From NCBI GenBank assembly GCA_000165345.1, contig CM000435.1:256001-320000 (forward strand): a DNA stretch of 64,000 nucleotides. The letters run 5' to 3'. Shown here one piece after another: positions 15,001 to 30,000 of this stretch. Position 1 is the first letter of the stretch. Each line of letters begins with the position of its first letter. A program made the position numbers.

Positions 15001-18000
15001 TATGAAGTCTTTCACATGGACTTGCAACAATATCTAATGGAATTGGTCTAAAAATTGAAACTATAGAATTTGTCCATGTTGATTGAATTTGAATATATCC
15101 ATTAATAGATAACTTTCCATTTGAAAATGAAGGATCCACAACAATATGAATAGGCTCAGATAATAATGGAGTTTGTTGAAATTTTGAACTACCAATATCT
15201 GTCTTAAACCAATTATTCACTGCACAACTTACTGAATTAATACCAGAACATGTACTATACCATCCAATAACCTGCAATCTAGAATTTGTCTTTTGTTTTA
15301 ATTCAAACATTGTCTCATGAGTATCTATCATTATTGAAAGCATACCATCATCTGTAAATGAATGTCTATCTACAAAAGAATCTGTTACTATAACATTCCC
15401 ACCTTCATTTATGTATCCTAATAAAGTTCCTATCACATATTGATGTCCTGATTGTCTTCTTAAATGAGAATCCAATATAGATAATATAACCAATGGATTC
15501 ACTCTACAACTTATTATTGATGGTTTTGATAATGAATCAAAAGTCAAATTTGTATCTGATAAGTGTGAAATTAAAAATCCATCACTTTCACTAATAATGT
15601 TATTTTGAGCACAATATATTGACATTATTATAACCAAATTTTCTTTATTATCACTTTATTAATAATTATAAGAAAAAGAATAATTTCTATTATTTTCAAT
15701 AAAGTCTGACTTATTTTATTTTCAAACCTTCTGATATGTAATATATATTATAATATCACTTTCTTTTGAGAACTTAAACTTTTTCTATTAAGATATAAAC
15801 AGAATTAAAAAAAAAAAGAATTAAATGAGATCTTAAACAAGCTCTATCAATATCCCTTTTTTTTTAATTAATTAATTTTTTTTTTTTTAATTGTTATTTC
15901 CCTTGTGATTTCTTAATTTATATTTTACCTCCTTCCAAATATTCCAAGTCTTGTATATTTTGACTATAATTTAAAAATTTTTTTCCCCCTTCTTTCTTCT
16001 GTTATTCTAATTCTTTTACAAAATAATTAATTATTATTATATTAATATTTACCATAATTCACTCATCAATTTCTACTAATATTAAATATAACCCTCAATT
16101 TACCGCAATTATTCATTTTTTTTTTTGTTTCTTTTTAATTAAATTTATTTATTAAAAAAAAAAAACGCGCTCAATAATTCTGTATATTTGGCAATATGTA
16201 CCGCCTAAGCGAGACGCCGGTACTAATAAATCTACATTAACTTTATTGAATTTAATTCAAATCAAAAATAAAAAAAAAATAAATAAATTAACTACTCATC
16301 TTTTTTAAATAATTAAAATTATATTTTTTTTTATATTACAAAAAAAAATTATTTTTATGTAATATAAAATTTAACACGTAATTATCAAAAATATTAATAC
16401 TGTTAATAATGTCAATACAACTAGAATAATCTTAAGTATAATTTATTCACCAATATAAAATTCTACATGCAGTTTTATTTATAAATTTTAATAAACCCTG
16501 ACAAACCTTTCTAACTTAATTCTCACTAATTACCCCACATGTGATTTAATGTACATGTAAATCATATACTCATGCACCCCTCCCATGCACTTTTTTCTCC
16601 CGCCTAATCACATGCACTTTAATATAAACATTTATCTTTTCTCTTCACACCTATCCCTACCCCCACCACTAATTCCCGCAATAAAACTGAAAACTAGCTA
16701 CTTTTTATTTTACTAATATCAACTTGTGTTAATAAATCTATAAATAACATTATATTCACTCTCTATTTATCACACACTAACACACTGTATTATGTTTATA
16801 TATAAATATATATTATGTATATATATATATATATATATATATATATATATATATATATATATATATATATATATATCCTCTATTTACCTCTAAATGTTAT
16901 TTATGTCTGTACATGTAATTACTTCTACATGAAAATATTTGAATGCGGCGCGCTTTGTCTATCCTGTCATTTATAATATACCAAATAAAAAATTTAATGA
17001 GGGAGAGATTTCAAGAAGAACCGCTGATTAAAGGTTTTTTGAATAATAATAATTATTATTATTATTACAATTATCACTACTTACAAATACTTTACTAGAA
17101 ATAGTAATCATAGCCATTTTTAGAAACTAAGATTTGAGATTTTAAGATAAGATATATATACTGGTTTAGAATTTAGAGTTCCTATAAGTAATATACTAAA
17201 TCAATAAATAGGTGAATAGTTATCAAAAACAAAGTGTGGGGAGAAGATTTTAACGTTCATACAATTCTTTAGAAGAAAATAAATCTTTTGGAATAATTAA
17301 ATATGGTATCTAGTAGGTCAGCAAGCCCAAATAGAAGAGGTTCTACTGGCTCTTCTTCTATATCGTCTATAAATACCCGAATTGTCCCCTTTATCTCAAA
17401 CTATTACTCACTTCTTGGTGATTCACCAAATTCTCTTATAGATTTACATGTTAGTAATCCTGATCCACATTTAAAATGGCAAATTCCAAGCTTTATTATT
17501 GGTGGGAATCCAAGACTTCAAGGATCTACAATTATTGATAATGGAATAATTAGCATTAAAAGTTTTGGAAAAGATACATTACATAATTTATTCTCTAGTC
17601 TACCTACAATTACATGTAAGATTCCAGTCGAAATTATGGATATTAATGAAACAACTGAAAATATTGTTACTGTATCTATACATGGATATGTAATCTCAGG
17701 AATTGAGAGGTTATTATTTTTCCAAGTTTTACAATTATTTCATCAAATTGATCTTAATAACAAAGATAATTTTTTAATCTTTAATAATATCTTTTACGTA
17801 TTCCCAATACCATTTGATATGAAAAGTATTCGTAGCTTACAGACCTTCTCAAATCAGCATTCTATATCTCATTCATTTTCTTTGGCTCATACCCCAAAAA
17901 GTACAGGTTCAGAAGACTATGATAATAATACTAATGAAATAGGACATGAAACTACGGGAAATCATTCCCATAATCTAAGCTATCAACAACAACATCAACA

Positions 18001-27000: not shown

Positions 27001-30000
27001 GGGGAAAGAGATTCAAGCACAGGACCAGATTTTATGAGTAGAAGAGCCTTAGGAGGGCACCCATTTGGAGGCTCCATGGCTTATAGGGGAGGAGAGCTTG
27101 GAAGGCATCCGCCATACCCAGGAGGAGTCCCTGGCCAAGTTCACCAAAATACTAAGCCAAAAGGTCCCACTCTTGCGGACATTTGTAAAGGAGGTGTGAC
27201 ATCAATCAAGGAAAATCTTGAGAAGCTCAAGATTGATAGATTTGAACCATTCAATTCTTTAATTAAACAACTAGCAACTCAGCCATGTATCAGAACTCCT
27301 ACTGTAGATGACTGGTATGTCTTTGATAAGCAACTTTCTGAGATCCAATACCGTAATTCTGTTAAGAGATTTATAGGAGATGATAGTATTCAAGCTCTGA
27401 AGAAAATCATGGATATAGAAACTGCACTCTTGGAAATTGATCCTCATCCAGCTATTTCCAAACTCCCTTTAAGTGACACTAGACTTCTTGGAATAGATAC
27501 TGATGACTTTGCCCCATTCAACCAGAACCTATCAGTAGATGGAAGCTTTCTTTTGGGAGTTGGTGATAACCACATTAAAGTTGCACTAACACTCCAAGAT
27601 GAGGTTCCCTCCCTTGACCTTACTCCCCTAAAAGAGCTCGTAACAAAGTACACTCAACATCCTCTCTCCACACAATCAAATGGCGCGAGCGCCAATATTT
27701 CACAGGGTCCCTTCCCTAACTCTTCTGGAGTCTCAGTGAATGGCGTTTCTGCAGGTGCTGGAGCCGGATTAGGGGGCGGAGTTGGATCAGGAACTGCCCA
27801 CATTGGTTTTCCAAAACCCTCTCTTGGAGGAGGAACCAATCAAGGAGGCCTTCACGCGTCACTCTCTCACTTACAAACCAGCGAGACTAAGCCCGAACTT
27901 CCTCCTTCCCAAAGGCCAGCTATGGCGGGTAATGAAATCAAAGGCCAAGATCTTAAGTCTATGCATTACAATGGATTTGGTGTTCATCGAGGAGAGGTAT
28001 TGCCAGGCACTACAGAAACCTCTGGTGTGAGTAACGTCCCTCTTTCCCAAGTAGGTCAGACCCACGCTCATGGGAGAATTGCTTACAAGCACGGATATCC
28101 CCCATCCTTAGGATCTGGCCCTGGATCAGGGACAGGATCTATGCCCATATCTATGCCTGTTAGTGGAACTCCTGGAAAGCCGAGTGTCCCTGGAACTTCC
28201 GGAGTAGGAAACTCAAACAGCTATTATGAAGTTTGTCCTCCAGCTAAGGTCCAAAAGTTTGAGCAATCTCATTATCCTACTCATAGTGGTGCATCCCATG
28301 CGTTCCCTTCTTCTCACTCAGTTATACCGCCACATTCAGTGCATACAGTGCATCCGACTCAGACTTCGGCTATCCCTAAACAAGGAGTGCAAGCAACAGC
28401 TCCTCCCAGTGGTGGTAATAAACCTGGTGTCCCTTTGAACTATAATCAAGTTCATGGGCGGGGGATACAGCATGGAGGTCAAATGCATGCGCAAGGGCAT
28501 GGTCCGGGAGCTGGGCTTGGACATTTAAATGGGCATCGTATACAGAGTACCAATTTAGTAGCAAATCCCACAAACTCTAACAATGTTTCTCCTGTTAGTG
28601 TTGGAAATAATACAAATCAGAATATGAGAGTCTCCGCCTCGAGTCCTACCGCTACCACCTCTACTAGCAATGCTCACTTGAGTGTTAATTTGAATATGGC
28701 TTCTAATGCTGCTGCAACTACTACTAATGCTTCTGTTTCTGCTAACTCTATCTCAACAGCTCAAACAGCTCCCATCAACTCTACTGCAAATATAGCATCC
28801 GCCAATACTGCTAATAATACAGTCAATACTCCTTTGGGTAATTTTGTTCCAAGCTCCGTTGTTCCAGGTTCAGCTGTAACTACTGCCTCTATTAGTGGAG
28901 GTAGTAAAATGAATCATATTGGCAATGTACCGACTTCAGCTGCAGCTGCTCCTACAAATTCTTCTTCCATCTCACCAACTGCCAATGTTTCAAATATTCA
29001 ATACTTGAACAGTAATGATGTTCGTAGAATCTCTGATAAGTTAAACTACTCTCAAAATATGATGGGAAGCCAAGTCCATCACCAGGGACATCTCGTAAAC
29101 AGGACTCATGTTAGTAACCCTGGTAGCCATTACCTTCAAATGAACGCAAGTTCAGGAAATCATATTGGTGCTGGAGCTGTAGGAGCTGCGATGGTAACAA
29201 ATACTAATCAACGTATAGATCATGCAATGAGTGGTAATATTGGGCAGCAAAAGGTCATAACTAGTGGCTACATCCAAAATAATGAGTACATGGCACGGGG
29301 AGCAGACCCAAATGTAGGTGGTGGTACTAATAACAGTACCACCAATAAAAATAATAATAGTGGCAATAGTGGCAATATGTATGAGTTGTACCAGCATAAT
29401 GCTAAGAAACCAGAAATGCCCATTGATATTAGGGAGGAGCGGGCACGTCTGGACCAGAATATGTATATGGTAGAAGGTATGGGAGTAAATGGAATGAATA
29501 TGAGGTCTCGTCAACAAATACTACAAATGCAATCGCATCAGAACTCAGTTAAGCCACCCCACTACCACCATCAGTATCCCCCTCAGTCGCAGATCCCTAT
29601 TCACAAGTCCCATGTAAATAATGGAAACGTTTCCAATGCGAACGGAAGTAATAACTTTTATCAAAAATATAACAATAACACTACAAACAGCAATAGTAAC
29701 ATTCAATATCATAACAGAAATATCTCACCAATGGGGCAAGCATCTTCCAATATCCCTAATATTGCCAATCCCATAAACAATTTGACTAGCGGAAGTTCAC
29801 AATATCCGCAAGATGGGATTAATCACCTTGGACAAAAAAAATAAAATTAGCTCTAATTAGTTTATAGTTTTAATTTAAGGTTATTATAATTTGTATTGCA
29901 TGCATGTGTATAATTTTCTCATGTTTTTTTTTGCTATTAGATTACGTGTTAGACTACTTGCATGTAAAAACCGGTATTAATGATGTTGGCGCCCACAATG

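What the first reader, a model, noticed from the sequence alone, without database searches (positions are those of the whole stretch)
16216..29994. Recurring CCGGTAYTAAT element in intergenic regions, often next to GGCGCC/E2F-like sites
GCCGGTACTAAT occurs identically at 16216..16227 and 25248..25259, and ACCGGTATTAAT at 29969..29980 lies 8 nt from TTGGCGCCCA. Related CCGGTA cores occur at 13229..13275 (three copies), in the 10091 palindrome and at 56921 (CTGCCGGTAAAAT near TGGCGCCAG). A GC-containing 12-mer recurring exactly in AT-rich intergenic DNA is unlikely by chance. It could be a novel cis-element that co-operates with E2F.
Basis: seen in the sequence. Interest (0 to 1): 0.5.

Follow-up and report, generated by a model that had tools for sequence, protein, structure and literature searches.

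The report
Conserved CCGGTAC promoter motif in Cryptosporidium
A short DNA word, CCGGTAC, sits between genes of the diarrhoea parasite Cryptosporidium parvum and is kept at the same spots in up to seven related species, so it is most likely an undescribed docking site for a gene-regulating protein.

Summary
The window is Cryptosporidium parvum Iowa II, about 64 kb of a 1.36-Mb chromosome. The repeated 12-mer GCCGGTACTAAT is real at both stated places, with only small coordinate slips elsewhere. The recurrence is far beyond chance: intergenic CCGGTA occurs 12 times against 0.8 expected, and 12 of 13 copies in the window are intergenic.

The functional unit is not CCGGTAYTAAT. It is the core (T/C)(A/G)CCGGTAC(T).

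- **Conserved sites.** Orthologous intergenic regions keep the core at four loci although the flanks have diverged: 16217, 25249, the 10091 palindrome and the triple cluster at 13225-13271.
- **Non-conserved parts.** The TAAT tail, the third copy (29971) and CCGGTACC at 25664 are not conserved.
- **Ranking.** In an unbiased screen of conserved 7-mers over 11 intergenic regions, CCGGTAC ranks first, above the known TGCATGCA and E2F words.
- **Exclusions.** It is not a dispersed repeat and matches no Rfam family. It is absent from the text of six Cryptosporidium regulation papers and from the supplements held for one.

Best reading: the binding site of an unidentified sequence-specific DNA-binding protein in promoters, mostly bidirectional ones. 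Conserved E2F-like sites flank it at three of four loci, but co-operation with E2F is not shown. This is a moderately interesting new member of a known kind.

The parts
16211..16223 (+). Site 1, GAGACGCCGGTAC. It lies in the 1.68-kb divergent intergenic region between a JAB/MPN gene (14576-15625, -) and a 396-aa gene (17303-18493, +).
   Evidence: The 13-mer is invariant in C. parvum, C. meleagridis, C. ubiquitum, C. felis and an unnamed GC-rich Cryptosporidium (SRR31860986), while the flanks diverge. In C. xiaoi the aligned position reads AGAGACGGCGCC. CCGCC or GCGCC lies at -16/-17 in all five species.
25248..25256 (+). Site 2, GCCGGTACT. It lies in the divergent intergenic region between a zf-CCCH gene (23030-24769, -) and a bromodomain gene (25786-29844, +).
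   Evidence: CCGGTAC is kept in 7 of 8 species: parvum, meleagridis, the unnamed species, canis, felis, xiaoi and ryanae. It is absent in C. serpentis. GCCGGTACT is an invariant column run in alignment A3.
10091..10122 (.). Perfect 32-nt palindrome TGCCGCCAAAAGTACCGGTACTTTTGGCGGCA. CCGGTAC is read on both strands (core 10102-10111) and is flanked by inverted E2F-like TTTTGGCGG words. It lies between ribosomal protein S9/S4 (9421-9972, -) and SNAP50/SNAPC3 (10304-11623, +).
   Evidence: One search shows the 16/16 inverted repeat. CCGGTACTTTTGGCGG is conserved in C. ubiquitum and the unnamed species. In C. felis the flanking E2F-like words are kept but the centre reads GTATCATAT. C. xiaoi lacks the site.
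13225..13271 (.). Cluster of three (T)ACCGG(T)A copies: TACCGG 13225-13230, TACCGGTA 13252-13259 and TACCGGTA 13264-13271. It lies in the divergent region between a 347-aa gene (11710-12753, -) and an LSM gene (+, ORF 13927-14193).
   Evidence: Copy order and spacing are conserved in C. ubiquitum and the unnamed species (three copies each) and in C. xiaoi (two copies). ATACCGG of the middle copy is invariant.
29970..29981 (+). It lies downstream of the bromodomain gene and upstream of the 30488 gene.
   Evidence: Not conserved. C. meleagridis has ATCGGTATTATG in a 97%-identical flank, while the neighbouring TTGGCGCC and GCATGC words are unchanged. No CCGGTA is found in this intergenic region in five other species. 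Probably not a constrained site.
25664..25670 (+). CCGGTACC, 121 bp before the bromodomain ATG.
   Evidence: Not conserved. It is CCTGTACC in C. meleagridis and unrelated in C. canis.
56922..56928 (+). GCCGGTA(AAAT), lying between TTGGCGCC at 56898 and 56971 in the divergent region 56819-57065.
25297..25305 (+). CCCGGGAAA, an E2F-like word 48 nt after site 2.
   Evidence: CCGGGAAA lies at +27 to +49 of the CCGGTAC in all seven species.
25218..25230 (+). TTTTGGCTCCAAA, a conserved partner block about 29 nt before site 2.
   Evidence: Invariant in parvum, meleagridis, the unnamed species, canis and felis. TTTGGC lies at the same 30-nt start-to-start distance before site 1 (16187 versus 16217).

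Best explanation
CCGGTAC is a short cis-regulatory DNA element of Cryptosporidium promoters. Its consensus from 21 conserved instances is (T/C)(A/G)CCGGTAC(T), and it is sometimes symmetrical, as TACCGGTA or GTACCGGTAC. It is most likely the recognition site of a still unidentified sequence-specific DNA-binding protein.

**Shown.**
- The word is strongly enriched in intergenic DNA and not in coding DNA.
- It is kept at the same four intergenic positions across species whose surrounding non-coding DNA has diverged to near-random similarity.
- It occurs singly, as overlapping inverted copies, and as a triple cluster.
- All four conserved loci are head-to-head (divergent) gene pairs of housekeeping type.
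- At three of the four loci it sits among conserved E2F-like words.

**Inferred.**
- A protein binds it as a monomer on CCGGTAC, or as two molecules on the symmetrical versions.
- Together with E2F/DP and other factors it sets the activity or the boundaries of these shared promoters.

The identical TAAT tail of the two 12-mers is a coincidence of the C. parvum/C. meleagridis lineage and not part of the element.
For: **Enrichment.**
- Intergenic CCGGTA is 12 observed against 0.77 expected, and CCGGTAC 5 against 0.07. This is comparable with the known E2F word (GGCGCC, 6 against 0.13) and AP2 word (GCATGC, 16 against 0.60).
- There is no enrichment in coding DNA.
- 12 of the 13 CCGGTA in the window are intergenic.

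**Conservation.**
- Site 1 is kept in 5 of 5 species where the region aligns, and site 2 in 7 of 8.
- The palindrome core is kept in 3 of 5 species, and the triple cluster in 4 of 5.

**Unbiased screen.** Among all 7-mers present in a C. parvum intergenic region and in the orthologous region of at least 2 distant species, CCGGTAC ranks first (3 regions, 10 species-instances). It ranks above GCATGCA and GGCGGGA/GGCGCCA.

**Concordance.** Presence or absence of CCGGTAC in other species follows its presence in C. parvum (10/13 against 6/32 cells, Fisher P = 4e-4).

**Other observations.**
- Beyond the motif, the flanks of the sites share only low-complexity matches.
- No RNA family matches.
- The word is absent from the 25 published upstream motifs (Table 1 of PMC3734150). 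It is also absent from the motif and AP2-specificity tables of a 2025 review (PMC12246861).
Against: - No binding protein, expression effect or chromatin footprint is available here.
- The sample is one 64-kb window plus about 35 kb of orthologous sequence, so genome-wide enrichment is untested.
- Distances to the nearest start codons are large and variable: 130-200 bp at the palindrome, and 210-1090 bp at the other sites. No fixed promoter position is evident.
- ATAC-seq peaks of sporozoites were reported to yield only E2F and poly-T motifs (10.1101/2025.01.17.633476).
- The motif is missing at these loci in C. serpentis. It has been lost at single loci in C. felis and C. xiaoi.
- Two C. parvum copies (29971, 25664) are not conserved.
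Confidence: 0.68

Rival explanations
1. The motif is one half of a composite element with E2F/DP. This is the reader's idea: the CCGGTAC-binding factor works only together with E2F bound next to it.
For: - At the palindrome the core is directly flanked by TTGGCGCC/CCGCCAAAA and TTTTGGCGG in three species.
- Site 1 has CCGCC or GCGCC at -16/-17 in all five species.
- Site 2 has TTTTGGCTCC at about -29 and CCGGGAAA at +27 to +49 in five to seven species.
- In C. xiaoi the site-1 position is occupied by GGCGCC instead.
Against: - The triple cluster has no E2F-like word within 90 nt in any species.
- With a strict E2F pattern, proximity is no better than random placement within the same intergenic region.
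- Spacing differs between loci: 0, 16 and 29-49 nt.
- E2F words are so common in C. parvum promoters (114 of 200 expression clusters, PMC3734150) that co-location is expected.
- In C. felis both E2F words at the palindrome persist without CCGGTAC.
Confidence: 0.12
2. The motif is an upstream promoter element, like the proximal sequence element of snRNA-type genes, or an internal part of unannotated small non-coding RNA genes lying in these unusually long intergenic regions.
For: - Three of the four host regions are long for this genome (1.0-1.7 kb).
- A highly conserved roughly 70-nt block (25296-25365) starts 47 nt after site 2.
- A conserved CATAAAAAGATCC lies 38 nt after the palindrome core.
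- SNAPc components exist in the genus, and SNAP50 is encoded next to the palindrome.
- From memory, the human U6 PSE (CTTACCGTAAC...) resembles TACCGGTAC.
Against: - No Rfam family matches at the gathering score in the window, and only chance-level matches appear at E up to 10 in the two regions.
- Conservation after site 2 decays after about 70 nt, and the consensus fold is weak (-12.2 kcal/mol, covariation term -0.8; the conserved block is unpaired).
- Nothing is conserved after site 1.
- The resemblance to the PSE is recalled from memory and was not tested.
Confidence: 0.1
3. The recurrence is chance or neutral inheritance. A GC-containing word repeats by accident and looks conserved only because the species are related.
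For: - The identical TAAT tail of the two 12-mers is indeed lineage-specific.
- Two of the C. parvum copies (29971, 25664) are not conserved.
- C. meleagridis is too close (95-97% in these regions) to be informative.
Against: - No Markov simulation reached the observed intergenic counts.
- Conservation holds in species with 46-60% mean column identity in these regions and with intergenic GC from 21% to 54%.
- CCGGTAC is the top-ranked conserved 7-mer.
Confidence: 0.04
4. The copies belong to a dispersed repeat or mobile-element remnant.
For: An exact 12-mer is shared by two distant places.
Against: - Between the 300-nt contexts of sites 1 and 2, the only match through the site is the 12-mer itself. 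All other matches are A/T runs.
- The repeat finder gives no direct-repeat family at site 1 and only short A/T-rich pairs at site 2, none spanning the motif.
- Each site is orthologously conserved in place.
Confidence: 0.01
5. The element acts at the RNA level, in 5' untranslated regions, for example as a binding site for an RNA-binding protein or as a splice or branch signal (TACTAAT).
For: - All non-palindromic CCGGTA(C) copies in divergent regions lie on the + strand, the sense strand of the right-hand gene.
- TACTAAT resembles a branch-point word.
Against: - The conserved part is CCGGTAC, not TACTAAT.
- Symmetrical copies and the perfect palindrome argue for recognition of double-stranded DNA.
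- Site 1 lies 1086 bp before the sense-strand gene, which has its own conserved E2F-like word and G-box closer to the ATG.
Confidence: 0.05

Closest known systems
E2F/DP sites of Cryptosporidium promoters (TTTGGCGCC / TTTGGCGGGAA; [A/T][C/G]GCGC[G/C][A/T])
   Same: A GC-containing word standing out in AT-rich intergenic DNA. It has a similar degree of intergenic enrichment, is conserved between species, is often symmetrical, and is found in the same promoter clusters.
   Different: The sequence differs: CCGGTAC has no GCGC core. It is also much rarer, with about 9 loci against 16 E2F-like intergenic loci in the window. It is not in the published motif lists.
ApiAP2 recognition words, especially the GTAC word of Plasmodium falciparum AP2-G (PMC11417369), and TGCATGCA (AP2_1) in Cryptosporidium
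   Same: Short, partly palindromic words in apicomplexan intergenic DNA. CCGGTAC contains GTAC. AP2 proteins are the largest family of specific DNA binders in the phylum.
   Different: - The invariant part here is CCGGTA. Conserved copies in the triple cluster read CCGGTAA or CCGGTAT and lack GTAC.
- None of the specificities listed for the 18 C. parvum AP2 proteins resembles it (Table 4 of PMC12246861).
- No binding was tested.
General regulatory factor sites of yeast promoters (Reb1, TTACCCGG/CCGGGTAA) and Grainyhead/CP2 sites (AACCGGTT); both recalled from memory, not tested
   Same: - The words are similar: CCGGTAA against CCGGGTAA, and TACCGGTA against AACCGGTT.
- The location is similar, in the middle of shared promoters next to A/T tracts.
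   Different: No Reb1- or CP2-type protein was sought or shown in Cryptosporidium. The words differ by one or two positions. Function as a nucleosome-excluding or insulating site is pure inference.

Membership tests
E2F/DP binding site | Central [C/G]GCGC[G/C] core flanked by T-rich and A-rich bases (PMC3734150, PMC12246861) | tested here: not met
   CCGGTAC and its conserved flanks contain no GCGC core. E2F-like words are separate, neighbouring blocks.
Published C. parvum upstream motifs (25 motifs in 11 families: AP2_1, AP2_2, G-box, E2F, GAGA, CAAT-box, unknown sets) | Match to one of the listed consensus patterns | tested here: not met
   - None of the 25 IUPAC patterns in Table 1 of PMC3734150 contains CCGG or GTAC.
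- There are no hits in the two supplement files held for that paper.
- The word is also absent from PMC1779779, PMC2832001, PMC4117751, PMC7840661 and the 2025 ATAC-seq preprint.
- Only the GAGACG flank of site 1 fits motifs 10 and 17 (RMGACG / VYGTCBC).
ApiAP2 site of the GTAC type (PfAP2-G) | GTAC core present in every functional site | tested here: inconclusive
   GTAC is present at sites 1 and 2 and at the palindrome in all species. It is absent from several conserved copies of the triple cluster (CCGGTAA, CCGGTAT, CCGGTTT, CCGGTGC).
ApiAP2 site of the GTAC type (PfAP2-G) | Bound by an AP2 domain in vitro or in vivo | not testable with these tools
   No binding data are available. The listed C. 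parvum AP2 specificities do not include it.
Dispersed repeat / mobile element remnant | Similarity extending into the flanks of the copies | tested here: not met
   Only the 12-mer is shared between sites 1 and 2, and other matches are A/T runs.
Known structured RNA (Rfam 15) | Covariance-model match at or above the gathering score | tested here: not met
   There are no matches in the window at gathering thresholds. Only chance-level matches occur in 24770-25790 and 15630-17300.
Conserved cis-regulatory element (phylogenetic footprint) | Retained at orthologous non-coding positions in species whose flanks have diverged, and enriched in non-coding DNA | tested here: met
Conserved cis-regulatory element (phylogenetic footprint) | Mutation changes expression, or a factor occupies the site | not testable with these tools
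   Needs reporter, pull-down or footprint experiments.

The most novel reading that the evidence does not exclude
CCGGTAC is the site of a general promoter-organising factor of intestinal-clade Cryptosporidium. Candidates are a Myb-type protein analogous to yeast Reb1, or the Myb subunit of SNAPc. Such a factor would mark the centre of shared, bidirectional promoters, or the starts of unannotated small RNA genes. In this extremely compact genome it would be a third pillar of the promoter code, beside E2F/DP and ApiAP2.
Probability: 0.15. Interest if true: 0.65.

Novelty: new member of a known kind. Interest (0 to 1): 0.45.

Why it matters
Gene regulation in Cryptosporidium, a leading cause of childhood diarrhoea, is poorly understood. 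The accepted promoter vocabulary is six motif families, and most specific DNA-binding proteins have no known site (PMC12246861).

CCGGTAC shows stronger cross-species conservation than the known words in this window. That makes it a concrete, testable lead.

- It can be used as bait to identify its binding protein.
- It can be mutated in transgenic reporters.
- It can be scanned genome-wide to define a regulon.

The result also shows that comparing intergenic regions between Cryptosporidium species finds elements that expression-cluster motif searches missed.

Tried and rejected
- **Known RNA.** Rfam found nothing at gathering score over the whole window. Permissive searches of the two host regions gave only chance-level matches.
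- **Structured RNA after site 2.** The consensus fold over four species was weak, and the conserved block was unpaired.
- **tRNA genes.** None were found.
- **Dispersed repeat.** Flank comparison found nothing beyond the 12-mer.
- **Strict E2F proximity test.** Not significant. A looser inspection then showed conserved E2F-like partners at three loci.
- **Apparent hits that are coding.** CCGGTACT at 2166 and CGGTACT at 4122 and 6046 first looked intergenic. They lie in a giant minus-strand ORF that runs off the window start.
- **CGGTACT at 22792 (minus strand).** It is conserved only in C. meleagridis, which is uninformative.
- **Literature.** Full-text search for CCGGTAC with Cryptosporidium returned only primer-type hits. 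Bankier et al. 2003 on chromosome 6 is not held.
- **Splice or branch-point reading of TACTAAT.** Rejected because that part is not conserved.

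
Full report
**Source and gene map.** The window is Cryptosporidium parvum. The 1352-aa ORF at 25786-29844 is a bromodomain protein, 89% identical to that of C. meleagridis. Its exact sequence lies on GCA_035232765.1, contig CP141124.1, which is 1.36 Mb. The 439-aa ORF at 10304-11623 is 100% identical to a C. parvum Iowa II protein of the SNAP50/SNAPC3 family.

The genome here is compact and AT-rich: 32% GC in coding DNA and 25.5% in intergenic DNA. About 79% of the window is coding. The genes around the finding, are listed below.

| Coordinates | Strand | Gene |
|---|---|---|
| <1-6123 | - | giant ORF |
| 7294-7728 | - | BUD31 |
| 7999-8751 | - | RNase T-type exonuclease |
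| 9421-9972 | - | ribosomal protein S9/S4 |
| 10304-11623 | + | SNAP50 |
| 11710-12753 | - | 347-aa protein |
| ORF 13927-14193 | + | LSM protein |
| 14576-15625 | - | JAB/MPN protein |
| 17303-18493 | + | 396-aa protein |
| 18498-20510 | - | unnamed ORF |
| 20800-22029 | - | cwf21-like protein |
| 23030-24769 | - | zf-CCCH protein |
| 25786-29844 | + | bromodomain protein |
| 30488-33867 | + | 1127-aa protein |

**The observation.**
- The two GCCGGTACTAAT copies are exactly where stated.
- The third copy is at 29970-29981, one base off, and lies 4 nt rather than 8 before TTGGCGCC.
- The 'three copies' are at 13225-13271.
- The 10091 feature is a perfect 32-nt palindrome centred on GTACCGGTAC.
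- GCCGGTAAAAT is at 56922.

**Is it more than chance?**
- CCGGTAYTAAT gives 3 matches against 0.01 expected, and CCGGTAC 6 against 0.37.
- I split the window into coding and intergenic DNA. This first required recognising that 1-6123 is one long minus-strand ORF running off the window.
- After the split, 12 of the 13 CCGGTA are intergenic.
- Intergenic CCGGTA is 12 against 0.77 expected (first-order Markov) or 3.6 (third-order).
- Intergenic CCGGTAC is 5 against 0.07 or 0.40.
- These excesses are in the same range as the established E2F and TGCATGCA words. Coding DNA shows no excess.
- Nine of the ten intergenic CCGG tetramers are followed or preceded by TA. The tenth is CCCGGGAAA at 25297.
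- I also asked how many GC-rich 12-mers recur between different intergenic places. The answer is 8 observed against 0.16 expected. Four are E2F-type and one is TGCATGCA-type, so such repeats flag regulatory words in this genome.

**Related sequences from other species.** I fetched the orthologous regions of eight further Cryptosporidium genomes around the bromodomain and SNAP50 genes. These are C. meleagridis, C. ubiquitum, C. felis, C. canis, C. xiaoi, C. ryanae, C. serpentis and an unnamed GC-rich species from run SRR31860986. Gene order is conserved. Intergenic GC ranges from 21% to 54%, and mean column identity of the intergenic alignments is only 46-61%. Against this background the sites behave as follows.

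- **Site 1.** GAGACGCCGGTAC is invariant in five species.
- **Site 2.** GCCGGTACT is invariant in five species, and CCGGTAC is kept in seven of eight.
- **Palindrome.** CCGGTACTTTTGGCGG is kept in C. parvum, C. ubiquitum and the unnamed species. C. felis keeps both flanking E2F-like words but has lost the centre.
- **Triple cluster.** It keeps its copy order and spacing in four species.
- **Non-conserved copies.** The CCGGTATTAAT copy at 29971 has three substitutions inside the 'motif' in C. meleagridis, although the flank is 97% identical. CCGGTACC at 25664 is not conserved either.
- **The TAAT tail.** It is shared only by C. parvum and C. meleagridis.

The consensus from 21 conserved instances is (T/C)(A/G)CCGGTAC(T).

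**Unbiased controls.**
- I screened all 7-mers that occur in a C. parvum intergenic region and on the same strand in the orthologous region of at least two distant species.
- Among those that do so in at least two of the 11 regions, CCGGTAC ranks first, with 3 regions and 10 species-instances. It lies ahead of GCATGCA/ATGCATG and the E2F words GGCGGGA and GGCGCCA.
- Presence of CCGGTAC in other species is concordant with its presence in C. parvum: 10/13 against 6/32 region-by-species cells, Fisher P = 4e-4.
- Three of the six discordant cells are the orthologous triple cluster, where C. parvum has CCGGTA but not CCGGTAC.
- There is some turnover. C. ubiquitum and the unnamed species have GTACCG-type words before the giant gene where C. 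parvum has none.

**What it is not.**
- It is not a dispersed repeat. Beyond the 12-mer, the contexts of sites 1 and 2 share only A/T runs.
- It is not a known RNA.
- It is not an E2F, AP2_1, AP2_2, G-box, GAGA or CAAT word, and it is none of the 25 patterns of Oberstaller et al. 2013.
- It is absent from the motif and AP2-specificity tables of the 2025 review.
- It is absent from the text of six Cryptosporidium regulation papers, and from the two supplement files held for PMC3734150.

**How it most likely works.**
- *Setting.* All four conserved loci are head-to-head gene pairs: S9|SNAP50, 347-aa|LSM, JAB|396-aa and zf-CCCH|bromodomain.
- *Forms.* The element occurs as a single asymmetric word, as two overlapping inverted words (GTACCGGTAC, TACCGGTA), and as a cluster of three.
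- *What this suggests.* That variety is typical of protein recognition of double-stranded DNA and hard to reconcile with an RNA signal.
- *Company.* At three loci it sits within a conserved block of E2F-like words. These are TTGGCGCC at -14 and TTTTGGCGG at +7 at the palindrome. They are CCGCC/GCGCC at -16 and TTGGC(G) at about -29 at site 1. At site 2 they are TTTTGGCTCCAAA at about -29, GCGCGCCA at -65 and CCGGGAAA at +27 to +49.
- *Exception.* The triple cluster has no such partner.
- *Conclusion.* I therefore infer a binding site for an unidentified sequence-specific factor. That factor would act in shared promoters, often but not necessarily together with E2F/DP.
- *Candidate factors* (all inference) are listed next.
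  - An AP2 domain with GTAC-like specificity. PfAP2-G binds GTAC (PMC11417369), but several conserved copies here lack GTAC.
  - A DNA-binding Myb protein. From memory, yeast Reb1 binds CCGGGTAA and the human U6 PSE contains TACCGTAAC.
  - A C2H2 zinc-finger protein.
- *Position.* Distances to start codons are 130-200 bp at the palindrome and 210-1090 bp elsewhere, so no fixed position relative to genes is evident. Site 1 is probably not the proximal promoter of the 396-aa gene. That gene has its own conserved E2F-like word (16945-16959) and G-box (17232-17242) closer to the ATG.

**Rivals.**
- *Small-RNA promoter.* This idea rests on two conserved blocks. One is 25296-25365, starting 47 nt after site 2. 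The other is CATAAAAAGATCC, 38 nt after the palindrome core. However, no RNA family matches, the fold is weak, and nothing is conserved after site 1.
- *Chance or inheritance.* Excluded by the distant-species conservation.
- *Obligatory E2F composite.* Weakened by the triple cluster, by variable spacing and by the strict-pattern test.

**Verdict.**
There is a real, apparently undescribed cis-element, but its unit is CCGGTAC(T), one of the three 'copies' is not constrained, and E2F co-operation is unproven.
- It is a new member of a known kind, a promoter motif.
- The evidence comes from one 64-kb window and about 35 kb of orthologous sequence in eight species, so genome-wide generality is the main open point.

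Noticed in passing
window 25296-25365 (also 25125-25135, 25177-25186, 25640-25651): The zf-CCCH|bromodomain intergenic region holds several further blocks conserved across 4-5 distant species. The main one is a roughly 70-nt block, CCCGGGAAA..AGCTCAAGAA.T.CTACGTAA.A.GAAATTA...GTGG..AAGATAGATCCTCC, starting 47 nt after CCGGTACT. The others are TCGGCAAATAT, GTGCGCGCCA and GCTTTATGCCAA. These could be a transcription-start region, a 5' UTR element or a small RNA. The consensus fold is weak.
   Followed up: partly
window 25360-25371 and 54975-54986 (minus strand): The 12-mer CTCCCAGAACAA recurs in two intergenic places. One copy lies inside the conserved block after site 2. It is one of only eight GC-rich 12-mers repeated between intergenic regions (expected 0.16).
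   Followed up: no
window 47167-47182: A perfect 16-nt palindrome, ATGCATGCGCATGCAT, lies in the intergenic region before the 47626 gene. It consists of two TGCATGC-type (AP2_1-like) words sharing a GCGC centre.
   Followed up: no
window 16211-16216; 16945-16959; 17232-17242: GAGACG next to site 1 fits the published motifs 10 and 17 (RMGACG / VYGTCBC). GCGGCGCGCTTTGTC (E2F-like) and AAGTGTGGGGA (G-box) before the 396-aa gene are conserved in C. ubiquitum and the unnamed species.
   Followed up: partly
window 16815-16880: A (TA)n microsatellite of about 60 nt lies in the JAB|396-aa intergenic region. It causes spurious miRNA-family matches in the permissive Rfam search.
   Followed up: no
L004 / L011 (Logan contig SRR31860986_6782, 65 kb): An unnamed Cryptosporidium with about 51% GC. 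It is fully syntenic with this window but only 53-66% identical in protein to C. parvum. It is apparently a species without a named assembly in the collection.
   Followed up: no
whole window: CpG is strongly depleted in coding DNA (observed/expected 0.31) and less so in intergenic DNA (0.64). This is why GC-containing CpG words stand out between genes.
   Followed up: no
L009 2494-3069; L012 1-7310: Two synteny differences. C. serpentis has a flavodoxin-like gene inserted between the JAB and 396-aa orthologues. C. xiaoi has Tfb4, WD40 and other genes where C. parvum has BUD31 and the giant ORF.
   Followed up: no
window 22792-22798 (minus strand) and 46348-46354: The near-motifs ATCGGTACT and GTCGGTACC lie in two further intergenic regions. 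The second is 37 bp before the ATG of a CIR/Slu7-like gene in a divergent region. The first is conserved only in C. meleagridis, which is uninformative. The second could not be tested.
   Followed up: partly
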